Source of the DNA: a virus
IMG/VR virus record: IMGVR_UViG_3300031616_000001
Location: 54,180 to 118,179 of that record
DNA: 64,000 nucleotides
Strand: one strand, 5' to 3'
In this document: piece by piece, positions 9,940 to 13,530 of the stretch
Numbering within the stretch: the stretch's first letter is position 1
Layout of the letters: each line of letters starts with the position of its first letter
Position numbers and translations under genes: made by a program
Notes under the pieces: generated by a model
Databases searched by the model: none
What the model saw: only the letters and a program-made list of their open reading frames with translations
What the model was told of the DNA's origin: nothing

Positions 9940-9943
9940 TCGC

Positions 9944-10074
9944 TTCCCGATCAATGACGTGCTTTACATGTAGCTCATCTGGTAGAGCAAAAGCCTAAAA
10001 AGCTTTGGGTAGCTGGTTCGATTCCAGTCGTCGCCGCGCAAGCGGTGGTCAAACGCACATCGACTCATCGGGAA
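9944..10074 (+). ncRNA. Y-RNA-like unit A with tRNA-like cargo (anticodon AAA, broken acceptor stem)
   Basis: TTCCCGAT/ATCGGGAA outer stem, CAAT/GACTC loop, TACATG; D arm, anticodon arm AAAGC-CTAAAAA-GCTTT, T arm GCTGG-TTCGATT-CCAGT. Confidence 0.8.
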
Positions 10075-10106
10075 CTGAATTTCAACGCCAGCGGAGGACC
10101 TTGAAC

Positions 10107-10283
10107 ATGCTGCACTACGCCGTCGTCTTTCTCGTCGTCGCGCTCATCTCCGCGATGTTCGGCTTTGCCGGCATCGCAGGCACGGCGGCCCTCGTCGCAA
10201 AGGGGCTGTTCGTCGTGTTCGCGGTTCTCGCGCTCGTGGCGTTTCTCATGGGCCTGCTCGCAGCAGACCGAGACAAGAGTTAA
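10107..10283 (+). CDS. DUF1328 / UPF0391 small membrane protein (YtjA-like)
   Basis: [35 protein letters not shown]. Confidence 0.85.
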
Positions 10284-10288
10284 AGAGT

Positions 10289-10361
10289 TTCCTGACACGG
10301 CCGGGCATACACGACCTTGCAAAGACCGTCCCGAAAGGGATTGCTCGGCGACTCTCAGGAA
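10289..10361 (+). ncRNA. Y-RNA-like unit B
   Basis: TTCCTGA/TCAGGAA, CACG/GACTC loop, GCCGGGCA/TGCTCGGC, TACACG, GAAA hairpin, trailing AGTTTT. Confidence 0.75.
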
Positions 10362-10379
10362 TCTAGTTTTGAAGGGTTC

Positions 10380-10469
10380 GTGGCCACTGATCGGCCTACA
10401 TGCTTTTGGCGCACGGAAGCGGGCCGCCTAGCGCGGTAGCGCACGAACGAAAGCCGATCGACTCGCCAC
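10380..10469 (+). ncRNA. Y-RNA-like unit C
   Basis: GTGGC/GCCAC, CACT/GACTC loop, GATCGGC/GCCGATC, TACATG, trailing AGTTTT. Confidence 0.75.
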
Positions 10470-10478
10470 ACAGTTTTC

Positions 10479-10600
10479 GTGACTACTGGAATGGCTACAC
10501 GCCTTTTAAGCGGGTTGTCGCAAGTTCGAATCTTGCCGTTCGGTGAAAGCTGAACGTAGCTCAGCGGTAGAGCACCTAAATATCCATTCCGACTCGTCAC
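10479..10600 (+). ncRNA. Y-RNA-like (YrlA-like) unit D with circularly permuted tRNA-Lys(UUU)-like cargo
   Basis: GTGAC/GTCAC, TACT/GACTC, GGAATGG/CCATTCC, TACACG; order is anticodon loop CTTTTAA, T arm, acceptor stem closed by GAAA, D arm. Confidence 0.85.
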
Positions 10601-10616
10601 ACATAGTTTTCAGAGT

Positions 10617-10752
10617 TGCCGCGCACTGTATCTGCATACACGCATCAGAGGAATAGCTCAGCTGGTTAGAGCATCGGGGTCAACCCCGAGGTCGTCGGTT
10701 CGAACCCGACTTCCCCTACCAACCGCAAGGACAGCAGATCGATTTCGCGGCA
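10617..10752 (+). ncRNA. Y-RNA-like unit E enclosing an anticodon-less tRNA (10647-10721, ends ACCA)
   Basis: TGCCGCG/CGCGGCA, CACT/GATTT, TACACG; cloverleaf with TCGGGG-TCAA-CCCCGA in place of the anticodon arm. Confidence 0.8.
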
Positions 10753-10779
10753 TCAATTTTTCGACAGAGGAGAGCACAC

Positions 10780-12246
10780 ATGGAATCTGGACTCACGCGC
10801 AACCGCGTCATCAGCGAACTCACCCGCAGCCCGCACGGCGACCTCGCGCAGTACGCGCCGATTGGCCTGCAGGCGGCCGCTGAGGATCCGAACTTCTTTG
10901 CTCACCTCGTCGCCTGGAACGCCCGCAAGGGCCAGATCCGCGACGCCAAGGTCGCGCTTCCCGTGCTTGCGCTGACGGCTGCCGCGCTGCGGGATGACGT
11001 CGAGCTGCGCGACAACGCGATCGCGCACATCGTCAGCCTGGATCCGCGCAACCTCGTGCGCGCCGTGCGCTTTGCGAAGTCGCAGCCCGTGCAGGAGCGT
11101 CGCCGCGTCTCGCGCGCCGTCGAGCAGTACCTGCGCGAGCGCGAAGCCAACCCCGGCCGCTTCGAGCGCGCCGCGCTGCAGCACCGCGCCTCCATGAAGG
11201 AACTCTACGCGCTGCTGCACATCAAGCCCGGCGAGTACGCGCAGAAGGTGCTCTTTGACGGCGCAAAGGTCGGCGTGTTCGCCGACGTCACACGCCTCAA
11301 GGACCTGGATCCCACGGAAGCCGCGGGCTTGATCATGCGCAAGCGCATCCCGTTCCTGACGGCGATGGGCGCGCTCGGCGTGAAGTCGAAGGACCCGGCC
11401 GTCGTGCAGGCGCTGATCGCCGCCATGACGCCGACGGAACTCGTGACGAACGCGAAGATGCTCGAGCGCCTCGGCGTGAAGACCGACCCAGCGCTACGCG
11501 CTGCCTTCGATGCTGGCCTGATGAAGGCGGCCGACTCCGGCGCGTCCACGCTGAAGACCACGCGCGCCGCTGACGCCATCGGCGGGTCGACGGGCGAGAA
11601 GCTTCGCGGCGTGCAGGAGAAACAGATCGACAAGATCGCCGTCGAAGGCGACTGGTTGATCCTGGCCGACAAGTCGCCTTCGATGCGTGATTCCCTGGAT
11701 GTCGGCCGCAAGATCGCCGACGTGCTCGCGCGCGCCGCGAAGGGCGACGTGCACCTCGTGTGGTTCGACTCGGGGCCGACGTACTTCAACGTCACCGGCA
11801 AAACGTACGACGAGATCATGGAGCTGACGAAGCGCATCACCGTGAGCGGTGGCACGGACATCGGCATTGGCCTCGAATACGCGCTCGAGAAGAAGCTCAT
11901 CGTCGACGGCATTGCAGTCGTCTCGGACGGCGGCGACGGCCGTGCCGGTGGCTTCAGCCGGGCGTATCAGAAGTACAGCGACTTCGCCGGCAAGGACGTG
12001 CCGGTGTACTTCTACAAGCTCGCCGGCGACCCCGACACGTTCACGGATCGCGTGGTGGCCGATGGGATCTCCATGCAGGCCTTCGACCTGCGTGGCGGCG
12101 TGGACTTCTACTCACTGCCTGCTGTCGTGACCACGATGCGCACCAATCGCTTCGGGCTGGCCGAGGAGATCCTCGAGATGCCGCTGCTGCGACTGGCCGA
12201 CGTGCTGCGCAGCAATGTGGTTGCCGCAGAGTTGGTGGCGGCCTGA
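10780..12246 (+). CDS. Ro60/TROVE-like helical domain plus vWA protein
   Basis: Helical N-terminus; C-terminal vWA MIDAS DKSPS, GGTD, VSDG; adjacent to tRNA-like RNAs; strong RBS. Confidence 0.7.
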   Translation: MESGLTRNRVISELTRSPHGDLAQYAPIGLQAAAEDPNFFAHLVAWNARKGQIRDAKVALPVLALTAAALRDDVELRDNAIAHIVSLDPRNLVRAVRFAKSQPVQERRRVSRAVEQYLREREANPGRFERAALQHRASMKELYALLHIKPGEYAQKVLFDGAKVGVFADVTRLKDLDPTEAAGLIMRKRIPFLTAMGALGVKSKDPAVVQALIAAMTPTELVTNAKMLERLGVKTDPALRAAFDAGLMKAADSGASTLKTTRAADAIGGSTGEKLRGVQEKQIDKIAVEGDWLILADKSPSMRDSLDVGRKIADVLARAAKGDVHLVWFDSGPTYFNVTGKTYDEIMELTKRITVSGGTDIGIGLEYALEKKLIVDGIAVVSDGGDGRAGGFSRAYQKYSDFAGKDVPVYFYKLAGDPDTFTDRVVADGISMQAFDLRGGVDFYSLPAVVTTMRTNRFGLAEEILEMPLLRLADVLRSNVVAAELVAA

Positions 12247-12336: not shown

Positions 12337-12639
12337 ATGTATCTGCAGCAACTCAAGAATCTAAACGTCGAGCGCATCGACGTCGACGAGGCGATCGCGA
12401 TGGCTACCTGGGCGCGTGCGTCGGCGAACGGCTACGACCACTACGGTGTGACGCCGCCGGCCTGGTTGACCGCCGCGATCGAGACGCTCGACGCCGAGAT
12501 CAACCGCCGCCGCCGCGACATCCTGGTCGCACGCAAGCGTGAGATCGAGGCGAACCTGACGCAGCTCCGCACCCGCGAGGAACGGCGTCACGACGCCGAG
12601 GCCGAGCTGGCGCGTCTCAACGATGCCCTCGGCAAGTAA
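12337..12639 (+). CDS. hypothetical coiled-coil protein
   Basis: RBS GAGG; C-terminal coiled coil. Confidence 0.65.
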   Translation: MYLQQLKNLNVERIDVDEAIAMATWARASANGYDHYGVTPPAWLTAAIETLDAEINRRRRDILVARKREIEANLTQLRTREERRHDAEAELARLNDALGK

Positions 12640-12778
12640 GCCAAAACAGGCCACCCCGAAAGAGGTGGCCTGTTTGCATTGCGCCTATCGCTGGCTGCCG
12701 CGCATCACCGGCCGGCAAGCCAAGTGCCCGCAGTGCCAGTCGCGCAAGTGGGACCAGAAGCCGAAGGCAAAACGATGA
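12623..12778 (+). CDS. small zinc-ribbon protein (not in the ORF track)
   Basis: CLHCAYRWLPR...KCPQCQSRKW; its stop overlaps the RlaP ATG. Confidence 0.65.
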   Translation: MPSASKPKQATPKEVACLHCAYRWLPRITGRQAKCPQCQSRKWDQKPKAKR

Positions 12779-13530
12779 AGACCACCATCCTCGAAGCCGT
12801 TGTTGGCTCGACGGTTCACGGTACCGCGGTGAACGATGGTCTCGAGGACCTTGACCTCATGGCCGTCGTCGTCGAAGACCAGAAGACCTTTGCAGGCTTC
12901 AATGCAGCCGACACGTGGGTCAGCCGAACCAAGCCGGTTGGCGTGCGCTCCGAGGCTGGCGATGTGGATCATGTGGCGTATGGTCTGCGCAAGTACCTGA
13001 GCCTGGCACTCAAGGGAAACCCGTCGATCCTGCTTGCGCTCTTCGTGCCCGGAGAGCACGTGCGGGAGATCACACTGTACGGCCACGCCTTGCGCGCGCT
13101 GGCGCCACAGATCGTCAGCAAACAGGCCTACATGCCATTCCGAGGCTACATGCGTCAGCAGCATGAGCGCCTTCTGGGACTTCGCGGCCAGCGCAACATC
13201 ACCCGTCCCGAGCTGGTCGACAAGTACGGCTATGACACGAAGTATGCCGGCCACGTTGTGCGGCTCGGGCTGCAAGGCGAAGAGTTGCTGCAGACTGGCA
13301 GGATCTCGCTACCCATGCGCGACGCCGATCGCCAGCTCGTGCTCAAGGTGCGAACTGGCGGCTTCTCGCTTGCCGAGGCATCGACGCAGATCATCGACGC
13401 TGAGCGGCGGCTGGATGCTGCCTATGCGGCGTCGACATTGCCAGATCGGCCGAACTCGGAATTGGTCGAGCGCTGGATGCTGAAAACCTACCTGCAGCAC
13501 TGGTCGGAAGAATGGAGGATAGGCGGATGA
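12775..13530 (+). CDS. DNA polymerase beta-superfamily nucleotidyltransferase, RlaP/YcgL family
   Basis: GSTVHG...EDLD, YGLRKYLSLALKGNPSIL, YDTKYAGHVVRL. Confidence 0.85.
   Translation: MKTTILEAVVGSTVHGTAVNDGLEDLDLMAVVVEDQKTFAGFNAADTWVSRTKPVGVRSEAGDVDHVAYGLRKYLSLALKGNPSILLALFVPGEHVREITLYGHALRALAPQIVSKQAYMPFRGYMRQQHERLLGLRGQRNITRPELVDKYGYDTKYAGHVVRLGLQGEELLQTGRISLPMRDADRQLVLKVRTGGFSLAEASTQIIDAERRLDAAYAASTLPDRPNSELVERWMLKTYLQHWSEEWRIGG

What the first reader, a model, noticed from the sequence alone, without database searches (positions are those of the whole stretch)
10479..10600. Circularly permuted tRNA-Lys(UUU) mimic that keeps its anticodon loop
Order is anticodon hairpin (CGC-CTTTTAA-GCG), T arm (GCAAG-TTCGAAT-CTTGC), acceptor stem sealed by a GAAA loop (CGTTCGGT-GAAA-GCTGAACG), then D arm (TAGCTCAGCGGTAGAGCA). 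YrlA-type RNAs use the T/acceptor/D permutation, but there the Ro stem takes the place of the anticodon arm. Here a complete 7-nt Lys(UUU) loop remains, and tRNA-Lys is a known target of anticodon nucleases such as PrrC. With no free 3' CCA it cannot be charged, which fits a decoy (inference).
Basis: partly seen in the sequence, partly recalled or inferred. Interest (0 to 1): 0.82.

Follow-up and report, generated by a model that had tools for sequence, protein, structure and literature searches.

The report
Phage Y RNA with anticodon-like hairpin
This is a phage copy of a known kind of small RNA (a YrlA-type Y RNA) that imitates a transfer RNA and lies beside the gene of its partner protein Ro60; its extra hairpin does look like an anticodon arm, but the same hairpin is present in ordinary bacterial YrlA RNAs, so it is a family trait rather than a special lysine-tRNA decoy.

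Summary
The element is a divergent YrlA-type Y RNA. Rfam YrlA matches full length at 40.9 bits, E 2e-7, below the cut-off of 69. It lies 178 nt upstream of a gene whose predicted fold is Ro60, inside a tandem array of Y-like modules.

The "anticodon hairpin" is real. It is kept with compensatory changes in 16 of 17 related phage modules, against 3.9 expected. However, it is the stem-loop already published for YrlA as the "V" or long variable loop. I found the same hairpin in mycobacteriophage Bxz1 and in canonical actinobacterial Rsr loci.

New here: the two bases after the hairpin pair with the two bases after the D arm (17/17 and 43/43, strong covariation). Hairpin plus this mini-helix therefore give a 5-bp stem, a 7-nt loop and a 5-nt variable loop. 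That is anticodon-arm geometry, with the Ro60 handle entering through a nick.

The loop format (C, U, three free bases, purine, A/C) is conserved, but the triplet is hypervariable. UUU occurs only in the window, its closest relative and one actinobacterial locus. Mimicry of specific tRNAs was not significant after I removed a circular reference. The decoy function is untested.

The parts
10479..10483 (+). outer terminal stem, 5' strand (GUGAC); pairs with 10596-10600
   Evidence: in MFE and centroid; helix 1 is 98.8% paired, with changes on both sides at all 5 pairs
10484..10486 (+). 5' side of the internal loop (UAC; the ACUG-type motif shared by the modules), opposite GACUC 10591-10595; presumed part of the Ro60 handle (inferred)
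   Evidence: same layout in many modules of related loci
10487..10494 (+). inner terminal stem, 5' strand; pairs with 10584-10591
   Evidence: (helices 2 and 3)
10495..10499 (+). CUACA linker; contains the YUAY motif conserved in YrlA RNAs
   Evidence: PMC4201824 section 6
10500..10512 (+). 3-bp hairpin (CGC/GCG) with the 7-nt loop CUUUUAA; equivalent to tRNA positions 29-41; this is the published YrlA 'V' stem-loop
   Evidence: a 14-nt insertion relative to the Rfam model
10513..10514 (+). GG (positions 42-43); pairs with CC 10575-10576 (positions 27-28), forming the top of the composite anticodon-like stem
   Evidence: helix 5: 17/17 paired, CG:14 and GC:3; helix 6: 43/43 paired with 4-5 pair types
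10515..10519 (+). 5-nt variable loop UUGUC; the last C can form the Levitt pair with G 10564
10520..10536 (+). T arm (5 bp, loop UUCGAAU)
   Evidence: helix 6, 100% paired; in L001 two pairs differ from the window on both sides
10537..10556 (+). acceptor-like stem of 8 bp closed by GAAA; no free CCA end
   Evidence: helix 7
10557..10574 (+). UA (positions 8-9), D arm (GCUC/AGCGGUA/GAGC) and A26
   Evidence: helix 8
10575..10576 (+). CC (positions 27-28); pairs with 10513-10514
10577..10583 (+). A/U-rich linker UAAAUAU between the 2-bp helix and the inner terminal stem
   Evidence: A-rich in all modules
10584..10600 (+). 3' strands of the inner stem (10584-10591), the GACUC internal loop and the outer stem (10596-10600)
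10780..12246 (+). Ro60-like protein (helical ring domain plus vWA), the presumed protein partner
   Evidence: AlphaFold2 pLDDT 81.4, pTM 0.71; Foldseek hits ranked 1-13 are all Ro60/TROVE entries, best E 7.5e-11, TM about 0.6; no Pfam TROVE hit by sequence

Best explanation
Window 10479-10600 (+) encodes a divergent YrlA-type Y RNA. It is one unit of a tandem array of Y-like modules upstream of a phage gene with a Ro60 fold. Two terminal stems flank an internal loop (UAC opposite GACUC), followed by the linker CUACA. Together these form the handle that Ro60 most likely binds (inferred from synteny and from what is known of Y RNAs). The rest is a tRNA-shaped head in permuted order: T arm, loop-closed acceptor-like stem, D arm. 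It keeps the nucleotides needed for the tRNA elbow. The 13-nt hairpin is the stem-loop published for YrlA RNAs as the 'V' or long variable loop. Comparative analysis here shows that the two bases 3' of the hairpin pair with the two bases 3' of the D arm. As a result, the 2-bp helix and the 3-bp hairpin make a 5-bp stem with a 7-nt loop, followed by a 5-nt variable loop. That is the geometry of an anticodon arm whose 5' strand is interrupted between positions 28 and 29, where the Ro60 handle joins. The loop keeps the anticodon-loop format (C32, U33, purine 37, A/C 38), but the middle triplet is free to vary, so the Lys(UUU) reading is incidental. Most likely function: it tethers or gates the phage Ro60 and presents a whole-tRNA-like surface to a tRNA-binding partner. 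Shown: the sequence, the covariation-supported secondary structure, synteny with a Ro60-fold gene, and homology with canonical YrlA. Inferred: Ro60 binding, coaxial stacking of the two short helices, and the biological role.
For: Rfam YrlA gives a full-length match, E 2e-7. The neighbouring gene has a Ro60 fold. Model R1, built from 13 phage modules, scores the window at 118.4 bits. It also finds YrlA-type RNAs upstream of canonical Rsr genes, including Gordonia polyisoprenivorans (57 bits) and mycobacteriophage Bxz1 (51.6 bits, 190 nt upstream of the annotated Ro-like gp220). The structure holds on 17 phage modules: 94.7% paired against 67.5% shuffled, and 25 of 28 pairs have changes on both sides. 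A hairpin of at least 3 bp is anchored between the YUACA linker and the 2-nt strand in 16 of 17 modules; shuffles give 3.9 +/- 1.7, with a maximum of 11 in 2000. There are at least 7 different stem sequences. The 2-bp helix is paired in 17/17 modules (CG:14, GC:3) and in 43/43 on the canonical set (GC19/AU16/CG6/GU1/UG1 and CG19/GC19/AU3/UA2). In an unfitted script count, 48 of 62 are paired, with 7 or more Watson-Crick combinations. In the canonical set 47 of 62 loops have 7 nt and 40 of 62 have a 5-nt spacer. Among 27 distinct 7-nt loops, C32 occurs in 24, U33 in 21 and a purine at 37 in 24. Between the window and L001 the T stem differs at two pairs on both sides, while the hairpin is identical.
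Against: The Rfam score is below the gathering cut-off (40.9 against 69). The cut-off discriminates poorly, however: 0 of 20 canonical actinobacterial Rsr loci reached it. The GNCGAA(N)G motif described for YrlA 5' ends is absent from the unit and from the + strand of the whole array. Single-sequence folding does not recover the hairpin: the MFE uses another register and the centroid leaves the region open. RNAalifold on all 17 modules predicts neither the hairpin nor the 2-bp helix; it predicts the hairpin only on the 9 modules that share one register, a subset I chose for that reason. In six related modules the 7-nt loop can close further into a 5-bp stem with a triloop. Alignments A7 and A9 were fitted to the model and so lean towards it. 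No expression, processing or binding data exist. Stacking of the two short helices cannot be tested with these tools.
Confidence: 0.8

Rival explanations
1. One reading: a tRNA-Lys(UUU) anticodon mimic that acts as an uncharged decoy or competitor for host anticodon nucleases that cut tRNA-Lys.
For: The loop CUUUUAA is identical to the loop of genuine tRNA-Lys(UUU) genes called by ARAGORN in related phage loci. The stem geometry is anticodon-like. tRNA-Lys is a defence target: PARIS AriB cleaves it, and phage T5 escapes with a variant tRNA-Lys (PMC11455837, passages read). That PrrC targets tRNA-Lys is recalled, not from a call. An RlaP nucleotidyltransferase (PF10127, E 6e-22) lies 530 nt downstream of Ro60, and RlaP adds nucleotides to damaged RNA 3' ends (bioRxiv 10.64898/2025.12.29.696909, abstract read).
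Against: The triplet is hypervariable. UUU occurs only in the window, L001 and 1 of 47 actinobacterial modules; the positional counterpart in L002 has GUU. The match of loops to genuine tRNA loops was not significant once the circular reference entries were removed: 8 of 26, P 0.044 against random triplets and P 0.42 against triplets redealt among the loops. The body is closest to the phage's own tRNA-Gln (21 of 23 identical on the T side). RlaP is next to Ro60 in 0 of 33 related loci, and the phage has no RtcB. The composite stem is nicked, and nothing is known about loop modification.
Confidence: 0.08
2. Published reading: the hairpin is a class II-like long variable arm that sticks out of the elbow, with no relation to the anticodon arm and little function of its own.
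For: PMC4201824 (sections 5 and 6 read) calls it V, 'less conserved', corresponding to the variable arm. bioRxiv 10.1101/312249 (section 7 read) states that many YrlAs have long variable loops characteristic of class II tRNAs, with possible short duplexes. Some related modules lack the hairpin or have other loop sizes.
Against: The hairpin is separated from the T stem by 7 nt, not the 1-3 nt of class II variable arms (the class II figure is recalled textbook knowledge). The first two of these 7 nt covary with the two bases after the D arm. That places the hairpin on the anticodon-stem side of the junction and leaves an ordinary 5-nt variable loop.
Confidence: 0.15
3. A decaying remnant of a tandem tRNA gene pair with no function of its own.
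For: The Gln/Ile junction in the phage's own tRNA array scores 24.6 bits on the YrlA model. The T side of the unit is 21/23 identical to the phage tRNA-Gln and the D side 20/21. Other tandem tRNA junctions hit R1 partially.
Against: The scaffold and head are kept with compensatory changes across loci whose Ro60 proteins are only 45-86% identical. The position is constant, upstream of and on the same strand as Ro60.
Confidence: 0.03

Closest known systems
YrlA (Y RNA-like A; Rfam RF02553; Chen et al. 2014, PMC4201824; structure of the S. Typhimurium tRNA-like domain, bioRxiv 10.1101/312249)
   Same: Encoded just upstream of, and on the same strand as, a Ro60 gene. Permuted tRNA-like head (T arm, closed acceptor-like stem, D arm) with the elbow nucleotides. 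YUAY motif. Optional stem-loop between YUAY and the T arm. 5' and 3' ends paired into a long stem.
   Different: Scores 40.9 bits, below the cut-off of 69. Lacks the GNCGAA(N)G motif; the handle instead has an ACUG-type loop opposite GACUC. The partner protein has no Pfam TROVE hit by sequence. It is one of about five tandem modules with different cargo. Here the stem-loop is read as the lower part of an anticodon-like arm, not as a variable arm.
Mycobacteriophage Bxz1 YrlA-type RNA upstream of gp220 (Ro-like), and the actinobacterial YrlA RNAs (for example Gordonia polyisoprenivorans)
   Same: Identical layout: a 3-bp hairpin with a 7-nt loop right after the YUAY-type motif, two bases that pair with the two bases after the D arm, a 5-nt variable loop, then the T arm.
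   Different: Canonical TROVE proteins. The hairpin stem is nearly constant (CCA/UGG). The handle sequence differs. Some have an open acceptor-like stem with an encoded CCA.
Deinococcus radiodurans Yrn1
   Same: A Ro60-bound Y RNA with a T arm and, as modelled by Chen et al. 2014, a possible anticodon arm with a 5-bp stem (PMC4201824 section 6).
   Different: The arm order is not permuted in the YrlA way, and the loop has 6 nt. Unit 1 of this window's array (9965-10073), not the unit under study, resembles it more.
Phage tRNAs that escape anticodon nucleases (T5 tRNA-Lys against PARIS; PMC11455837)
   Same: A phage-encoded RNA carrying a Lys-type anticodon loop, in the context of tRNA-directed conflicts.
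   Different: Those are chargeable, decoding tRNAs that replace the cleaved host tRNA. This RNA has a closed acceptor-like stem and a Ro60 handle.

Membership tests
YrlA-type Y RNA | Encoded within about 4 kb of a Ro60 ortholog and on the same strand | tested here: met
   The unit ends at 10600 and the gene starts at 10780 (+). Ro60 fold by AlphaFold2 and Foldseek.
YrlA-type Y RNA | Near-invariant T-like and D-like stem-loops in the order T, closed acceptor-like stem, D, with the tRNA elbow nucleotides | tested here: met
   Helices 6-8 are 97-100% paired with covariation.
YrlA-type Y RNA | Conserved YUAY before the V region | tested here: met
   CUAC at 10495-10498, aligned to model CUAc.
YrlA-type Y RNA | GNCGAA(N0-1)G motif near the 5' end (proposed Ro60 contact) | tested here: not met
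   No + strand match in the unit or in the whole array (L005 coordinate + 8975 = window coordinate).
YrlA-type Y RNA | Rfam RF02553 gathering score (69 bits) | tested here: not met
   40.9 bits. The cut-off is narrow: 0 of 20 canonical actinobacterial Rsr loci reach it, although R1 finds YrlA-type RNAs in most of them.
YrlA-type Y RNA | Bound by Ro60/Rsr; pseudouridine 55 and dihydrouridine present | not testable with these tools
   Needs immunoprecipitation and modification mapping.
Functional (decoding) tRNA | Open acceptor stem with a 3' CCA end | tested here: not met
   Stem closed by GAAA at 10545-10548. ARAGORN does not call it.
tRNA-Lys mimic or anticodon-nuclease decoy | Lys anticodon loop conserved among homologs | tested here: not met
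   UUU occurs only in the window, L001 and 1 of 47 actinobacterial modules; the triplet is hypervariable.
tRNA-Lys mimic or anticodon-nuclease decoy | Binds, is cut by, or competes for a tRNA-Lys nuclease | not testable with these tools
   A biochemical assay is needed.
Class II-type variable arm | Hairpin lies directly (1-3 nt) before the T stem, 3' of the whole anticodon stem | tested here: not met
   7 nt lie between the hairpin and the T stem, and the first two pair with the bases after the D arm. The class II spacing is recalled, not from a call.

The most novel reading that the evidence does not exclude
The 'V' stem-loop of YrlA RNAs, in this phage and in ordinary bacteria, is the lower half of a complete anticodon-arm mimic. 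Its conserved U-turn frame presents a fast-changing triplet. The triplet makes each Ro60-Y RNA particle a bait or sentinel for enzymes that act on anticodon loops, such as anticodon nucleases, toxins or modification enzymes. That would tie Ro60 to tRNA-damage conflicts between phages and hosts.
Probability: 0.12. Interest if true: 0.85.

Novelty: new variant of a known kind. Interest (0 to 1): 0.55.

Why it matters
What the tRNA-like domain of bacterial Y RNAs binds is an open question. The published view is that the elbow is the docking site and that the anticodon loop is missing. Suppose instead that the hairpin and the covarying 2-bp helix really form an anticodon-like arm, as the counts here suggest for the phage clade, for Bxz1 and for 43 canonical modules. 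YrlA RNAs would then imitate a whole tRNA. The candidate partners would widen to proteins that read anticodon loops, and the hypervariable triplet would become a direct experimental handle. The window also shows that a Ro60 family invisible to Pfam, together with its Y RNA arrays, is widespread in soil and root phages. There were 8 viral and 27 metagenome loci, but only one distant match among 50,697 GenBank phage records.

Tried and rejected
- **Kissing pairing with unit 1.** I compared only L001 and L002 by eye. About 4 pairs are possible in L001 and only about 3 weak ones in L002, so I did not pursue it.
- **Mimicry of specific tRNAs.** The first test gave 11 of 26 loops identical to genuine tRNA loops, P 0.0008. 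I reject it as partly circular: ARAGORN had called 'tRNAs' on YrlA modules themselves (L095, L116, L121), and these entered the reference. With a phage-only reference the result is 8 of 26, P 0.044 against random triplets and P 0.42 against redealt triplets. Mimicry is not shown.
- **An RNA-repair operon with RlaP.** RlaP is present here. It is found next to Ro60 in 0 of 33 related loci, though many loci end early, and the phage has no RtcB. I therefore do not use it as support.
- **Sequence-level proof that the protein is Ro60.** Pfam gives only sub-threshold vWA hits, PHROGs gives nothing, and a PDB profile search finds no Ro60. Only the fold search shows it.
- **Promoter scan.** 0 sites.
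- **Expression.** No RNA holder was listed for 9940-10780, only DNA runs, one of them the likely source.
- **Other searches.** A blastn search of GenBank phages found only 61-nt tRNA-like matches. The first genome-contig scan found nothing.
- **Papers.** The review PMC10870794 is not held, and supplements of PMC4201824 could not be seen. Either may already describe the hairpin loops. My statement that the anticodon-like reading is not in print rests only on searches and on the sections named above.

Full report
**What is there.**
- a 3-bp hairpin with a 7-nt loop (10500-10512);
- a canonical T arm (10520-10536);
- an 8-bp stem closed by GAAA (10537-10556);
- UA and a canonical D arm (10557-10573).

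It also contains two terminal stems, 10479-10483 with 10596-10600 and 10487-10494 with 10584-10591. The MFE and the centroid fold both recover the terminal stems and the T, acceptor-like and D arms. The MFE is -40.7 kcal/mol, z -2.57. Neither fold gives the proposed hairpin: the MFE uses another register and the centroid leaves the region open. ARAGORN does not call the element, and Rfam at gathering thresholds reports only three tRNA-type hits in the window. With permissive thresholds, Rfam YrlA (RF02553) matches 10476-10605 over the whole model (1-114) at 40.9 bits, E 2e-7, against a cut-off of 69. The hairpin appears as a 14-nt insertion right after the conserved CUAc.

**Context.** The window is part of a 118-kb virus record with terminal repeats. 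The ORF at 10780-12246, 178 nt downstream on the same strand, has only sub-threshold vWA hits in Pfam, nothing in PHROGs, and no Ro60 in a PDB profile search. A 20-sequence alignment gave an AlphaFold2 model with pLDDT 81.4 and pTM 0.71. The Foldseek hits ranked 1-13 are all Ro60/TROVE structures: a TROVE domain entry, Thermus phage phiLo Ro60, Xenopus and human Ro60, and Deinococcus Rsr. The best E is 7.5e-11 and TM is about 0.6.

The model R1 described below also hits three neighbouring units: 10374-10471 at 47.4 bits, 10613-10752 at 26.0 bits, and 9965-10073 at 17.9 bits (E 0.058). This agrees with earlier notes of this scan that describe a five-unit array. The unit under study is therefore one module of a Y-RNA array in front of a Ro60 gene.

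**Relatives.** The Ro60-like protein found 8 viral contigs and 27 metagenome contigs at 39-86% identity. It found none in the first genome scan and only one GenBank phage record, LR756511.1, at 30.5% identity. Upstream of these genes lie many modules with the same scaffold but different cargo. I aligned thirteen modules with the T/closed-stem/D cargo (A5) and built the covariance model R1.

R1 finds 17 modules above 56 bits in 13 sources. On their alignment:
- 94.7% of cells are paired, against 67.5% in shuffles and 31-44% in slid controls;
- 25 of 28 pairs show changes on both sides.

That alignment is fitted to the model, which favours the structure.

**The hairpin.**
- In 16 of 17 modules a stem of at least 3 bp starts 0-2 nt after the YUACA linker and ends exactly before a conserved 2-nt strand. 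Shuffling the segment gives 3.9 +/- 1.7, with a maximum of 11 in 2000. The 17th module has the stem 4 nt further in.
- At least seven different stem sequences keep the pairing.
- RNAalifold run on all 17 does not predict the hairpin. Part of the reason is that four modules are aligned one column out of register.
- On the nine modules that share one register, a subset I chose for that reason, RNAalifold predicts it, with UA:5/CG:4 at the outer pair.
- Read with the longest possible stem, nine modules have a 7-nt loop, six close further into 5 bp plus a triloop, one has 8 nt and one has 5 nt.

**The 2-bp helix.** The two bases after the hairpin (GG here) pair with the two bases that follow the D arm and one spacer base (CC here).
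- This holds in 17 of 17 modules, with CG in 14 and GC in 3 at one pair.
- In tRNA numbering the unit then reads: 26 = A; 27-28 = CC with 42-43 = GG; 29-31 and 39-41 = the hairpin; 32-38 = the loop; 44-48 = UUGUC; then the T arm.
- That is a 5-bp stem, a 7-nt loop and a class I variable loop. The 5' strand is interrupted between positions 28 and 29, where the linkers to the terminal stems leave.
- The sum of the two helices is 5 bp in 9 modules, 6 bp in 2 and 7 bp in 6.

**This is not special to this phage.** Chen et al. [quoted passage not shown] They equate it with the variable arm (PMC4201824, sections 5 and 6 read). Wang et al. 2018 write that many YrlAs have long variable loops like class II tRNAs, and that the S. 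Typhimurium RNA lacks the anticodon loop (bioRxiv 10.1101/312249, passages and section 7 read).

I fetched mycobacteriophage Bxz1. A YrlA-type RNA lies about 190 nt upstream of the annotated Ro-like gp220, and it has the same layout: a 3-bp hairpin, a 7-nt loop, two bases pairing with the two after the D arm, and a 5-nt spacer. LR756511.1 has it too.

Using gp220 I fetched 80 actinobacterial Rsr loci. Rfam's cut-off is reached in 0 of the 20 tested, including Gordonia polyisoprenivorans, a representative of the 2014 paper. R1, in contrast, gave 45 matches at E up to 0.001 across the 41 sources I searched.

A script that does not use the model counted 73 modules:
- 62 have a 3-bp hairpin 0-1 nt after the GGUUA motif;
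- 47 loops have 7 nt;
- 40 have a 5-nt spacer;
- in 48 of the 62 both bases of the 2-nt strand pair, with seven or more Watson-Crick combinations.

On the R1 alignment of 43 modules the hairpin is 97.6% paired and the 2-bp helix 100% paired, with GC19/AU16/CG6/GU1/UG1 and CG19/GC19/AU3/UA2. The published 'V' hairpin therefore lies on the anticodon-stem side of the junction, not in the variable loop.

**The loop.** Among 27 distinct 7-nt actinobacterial loops, the first base is C in 24 and the second is U in 21. The sixth is a purine in 24, and the seventh is A in 19 and C in 6. The three middle bases vary freely.

In the phage clade the loop of this unit is identical only in L001, whose Ro60 is 86% identical. 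The positional counterpart in L002 has GUU, and other modules have quite different loops.

I tested whether the loops copy genuine tRNA loops. The first result, 11 of 26 at P 0.0008, was inflated because ARAGORN had called tRNAs on three YrlA modules. With an independent reference it is 8 of 26, P 0.044 against random triplets and P 0.42 against redealt triplets. So the format of an anticodon loop is conserved, but mimicry of a particular tRNA is not shown.

The rest of the unit resembles the phage's own tRNA-Gln(UUG): 21 of 23 identical on the T side, the two differences forming one compensated pair, and 20 of 21 on the D side. The phage carries no tRNA-Lys. The Gln/Ile junction of the phage's tRNA array itself scores 24.6 bits on the YrlA model. 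This fits the published idea that YrlA arose from a tRNA dimer (bioRxiv 10.1101/312249, discussion passage read).

**Function.** Synteny and family membership make Ro60 binding through the terminal stems the most likely role. The tRNA-like head would be a docking surface.

The decoy idea remains possible. tRNA-Lys is a known target: PARIS AriB cleaves it (PMC11455837, passages read), and PrrC targets it by recall. An RlaP gene lies nearby, and RlaP adds nucleotides to damaged RNA ends (bioRxiv 10.64898/2025.12.29.696909, abstract read). Against this, RlaP is not next to Ro60 in any of 33 related loci, RtcB is absent, and the triplet is not conserved. I give the decoy reading about 8%, and the wider bait-or-sentinel reading about 12%.

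**Verdict.** The element is a new variant of a known kind: a YrlA-type Y RNA with a divergent handle and a divergent Ro60. The useful by-product is the covariation evidence that the YrlA 'V' hairpin completes an anticodon-like arm. I did not find that reading in the papers I could read. The supplements of the 2014 paper and the 2020 review could not be seen.

Noticed in passing
window 12337-12639 (+): A 100-aa ORF directly downstream of the Ro60-like gene is conserved in 20 of the 33 related loci that have a Ro60 match; many of the others end before it. It has no Pfam or PHROGs family. It is a candidate protein partner of this Ro60 clade.
   Followed up: partly
window 12775-13530 (+): An RlaP nucleotidyltransferase (PF10127, E 6e-22; phrog_388). 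Unlike the 100-aa ORF, it is not found beside Ro60 in any of the 33 related loci.
   Followed up: partly
window 9965-10073, 10374-10471, 10613-10752 (+): Neighbouring Y-like modules with other cargo. One has a D/anticodon/T body without an acceptor end. One has a hairpin plus a D-like arm only. One is a near-complete cloverleaf with an encoded CCA but a 6-nt or shorter anticodon loop. In L002 the last position holds a normal tRNA-Met (66.3 bits).
   Followed up: partly
L053-L132 (actinobacterial Rsr loci): The Rfam YrlA model reaches its gathering score in 0 of 20 canonical Rsr loci tested, although YrlA-type RNAs are plainly there (R1 at 35-64 bits). The family model appears too narrow.
   Followed up: partly
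L095 1036-1111, L116 1009-1082, L121 1015-1085: ARAGORN calls complete 'tRNAs' on YrlA modules. It uses the 5' handle region as acceptor and D arm, and the hairpin as the anticodon arm. This is a trap for tRNA annotation, and it is consistent with an origin from a tRNA dimer.
   Followed up: no
G000:C1:14795-14871 (outside the window): The phage tRNA-Ile(GAU) has A instead of U at loop position 33. Several tRNAs in related phage arrays also have unusual loops.
   Followed up: no
window 10470-10478 and 10601-10616; linkers in L001, L002, L004: The linkers between modules share an AGUUU(U) motif. These may be processing sites that release the single Y RNAs (inference only).
   Followed up: no
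window 10107-10283 (+): A 58-aa DUF1328 membrane protein gene lies inside the Y-RNA array, between units 1 and 2. It is also present in L001.
   Followed up: no
L047 (LR756511.1 282747-290216): A 595-kb uncultured phage is the only GenBank phage record with a relative of this Ro60 (30.5% identity). It has a YrlA-type RNA (R1 44.9 bits) about 1 kb upstream, with a Thr-like loop.
   Followed up: partly
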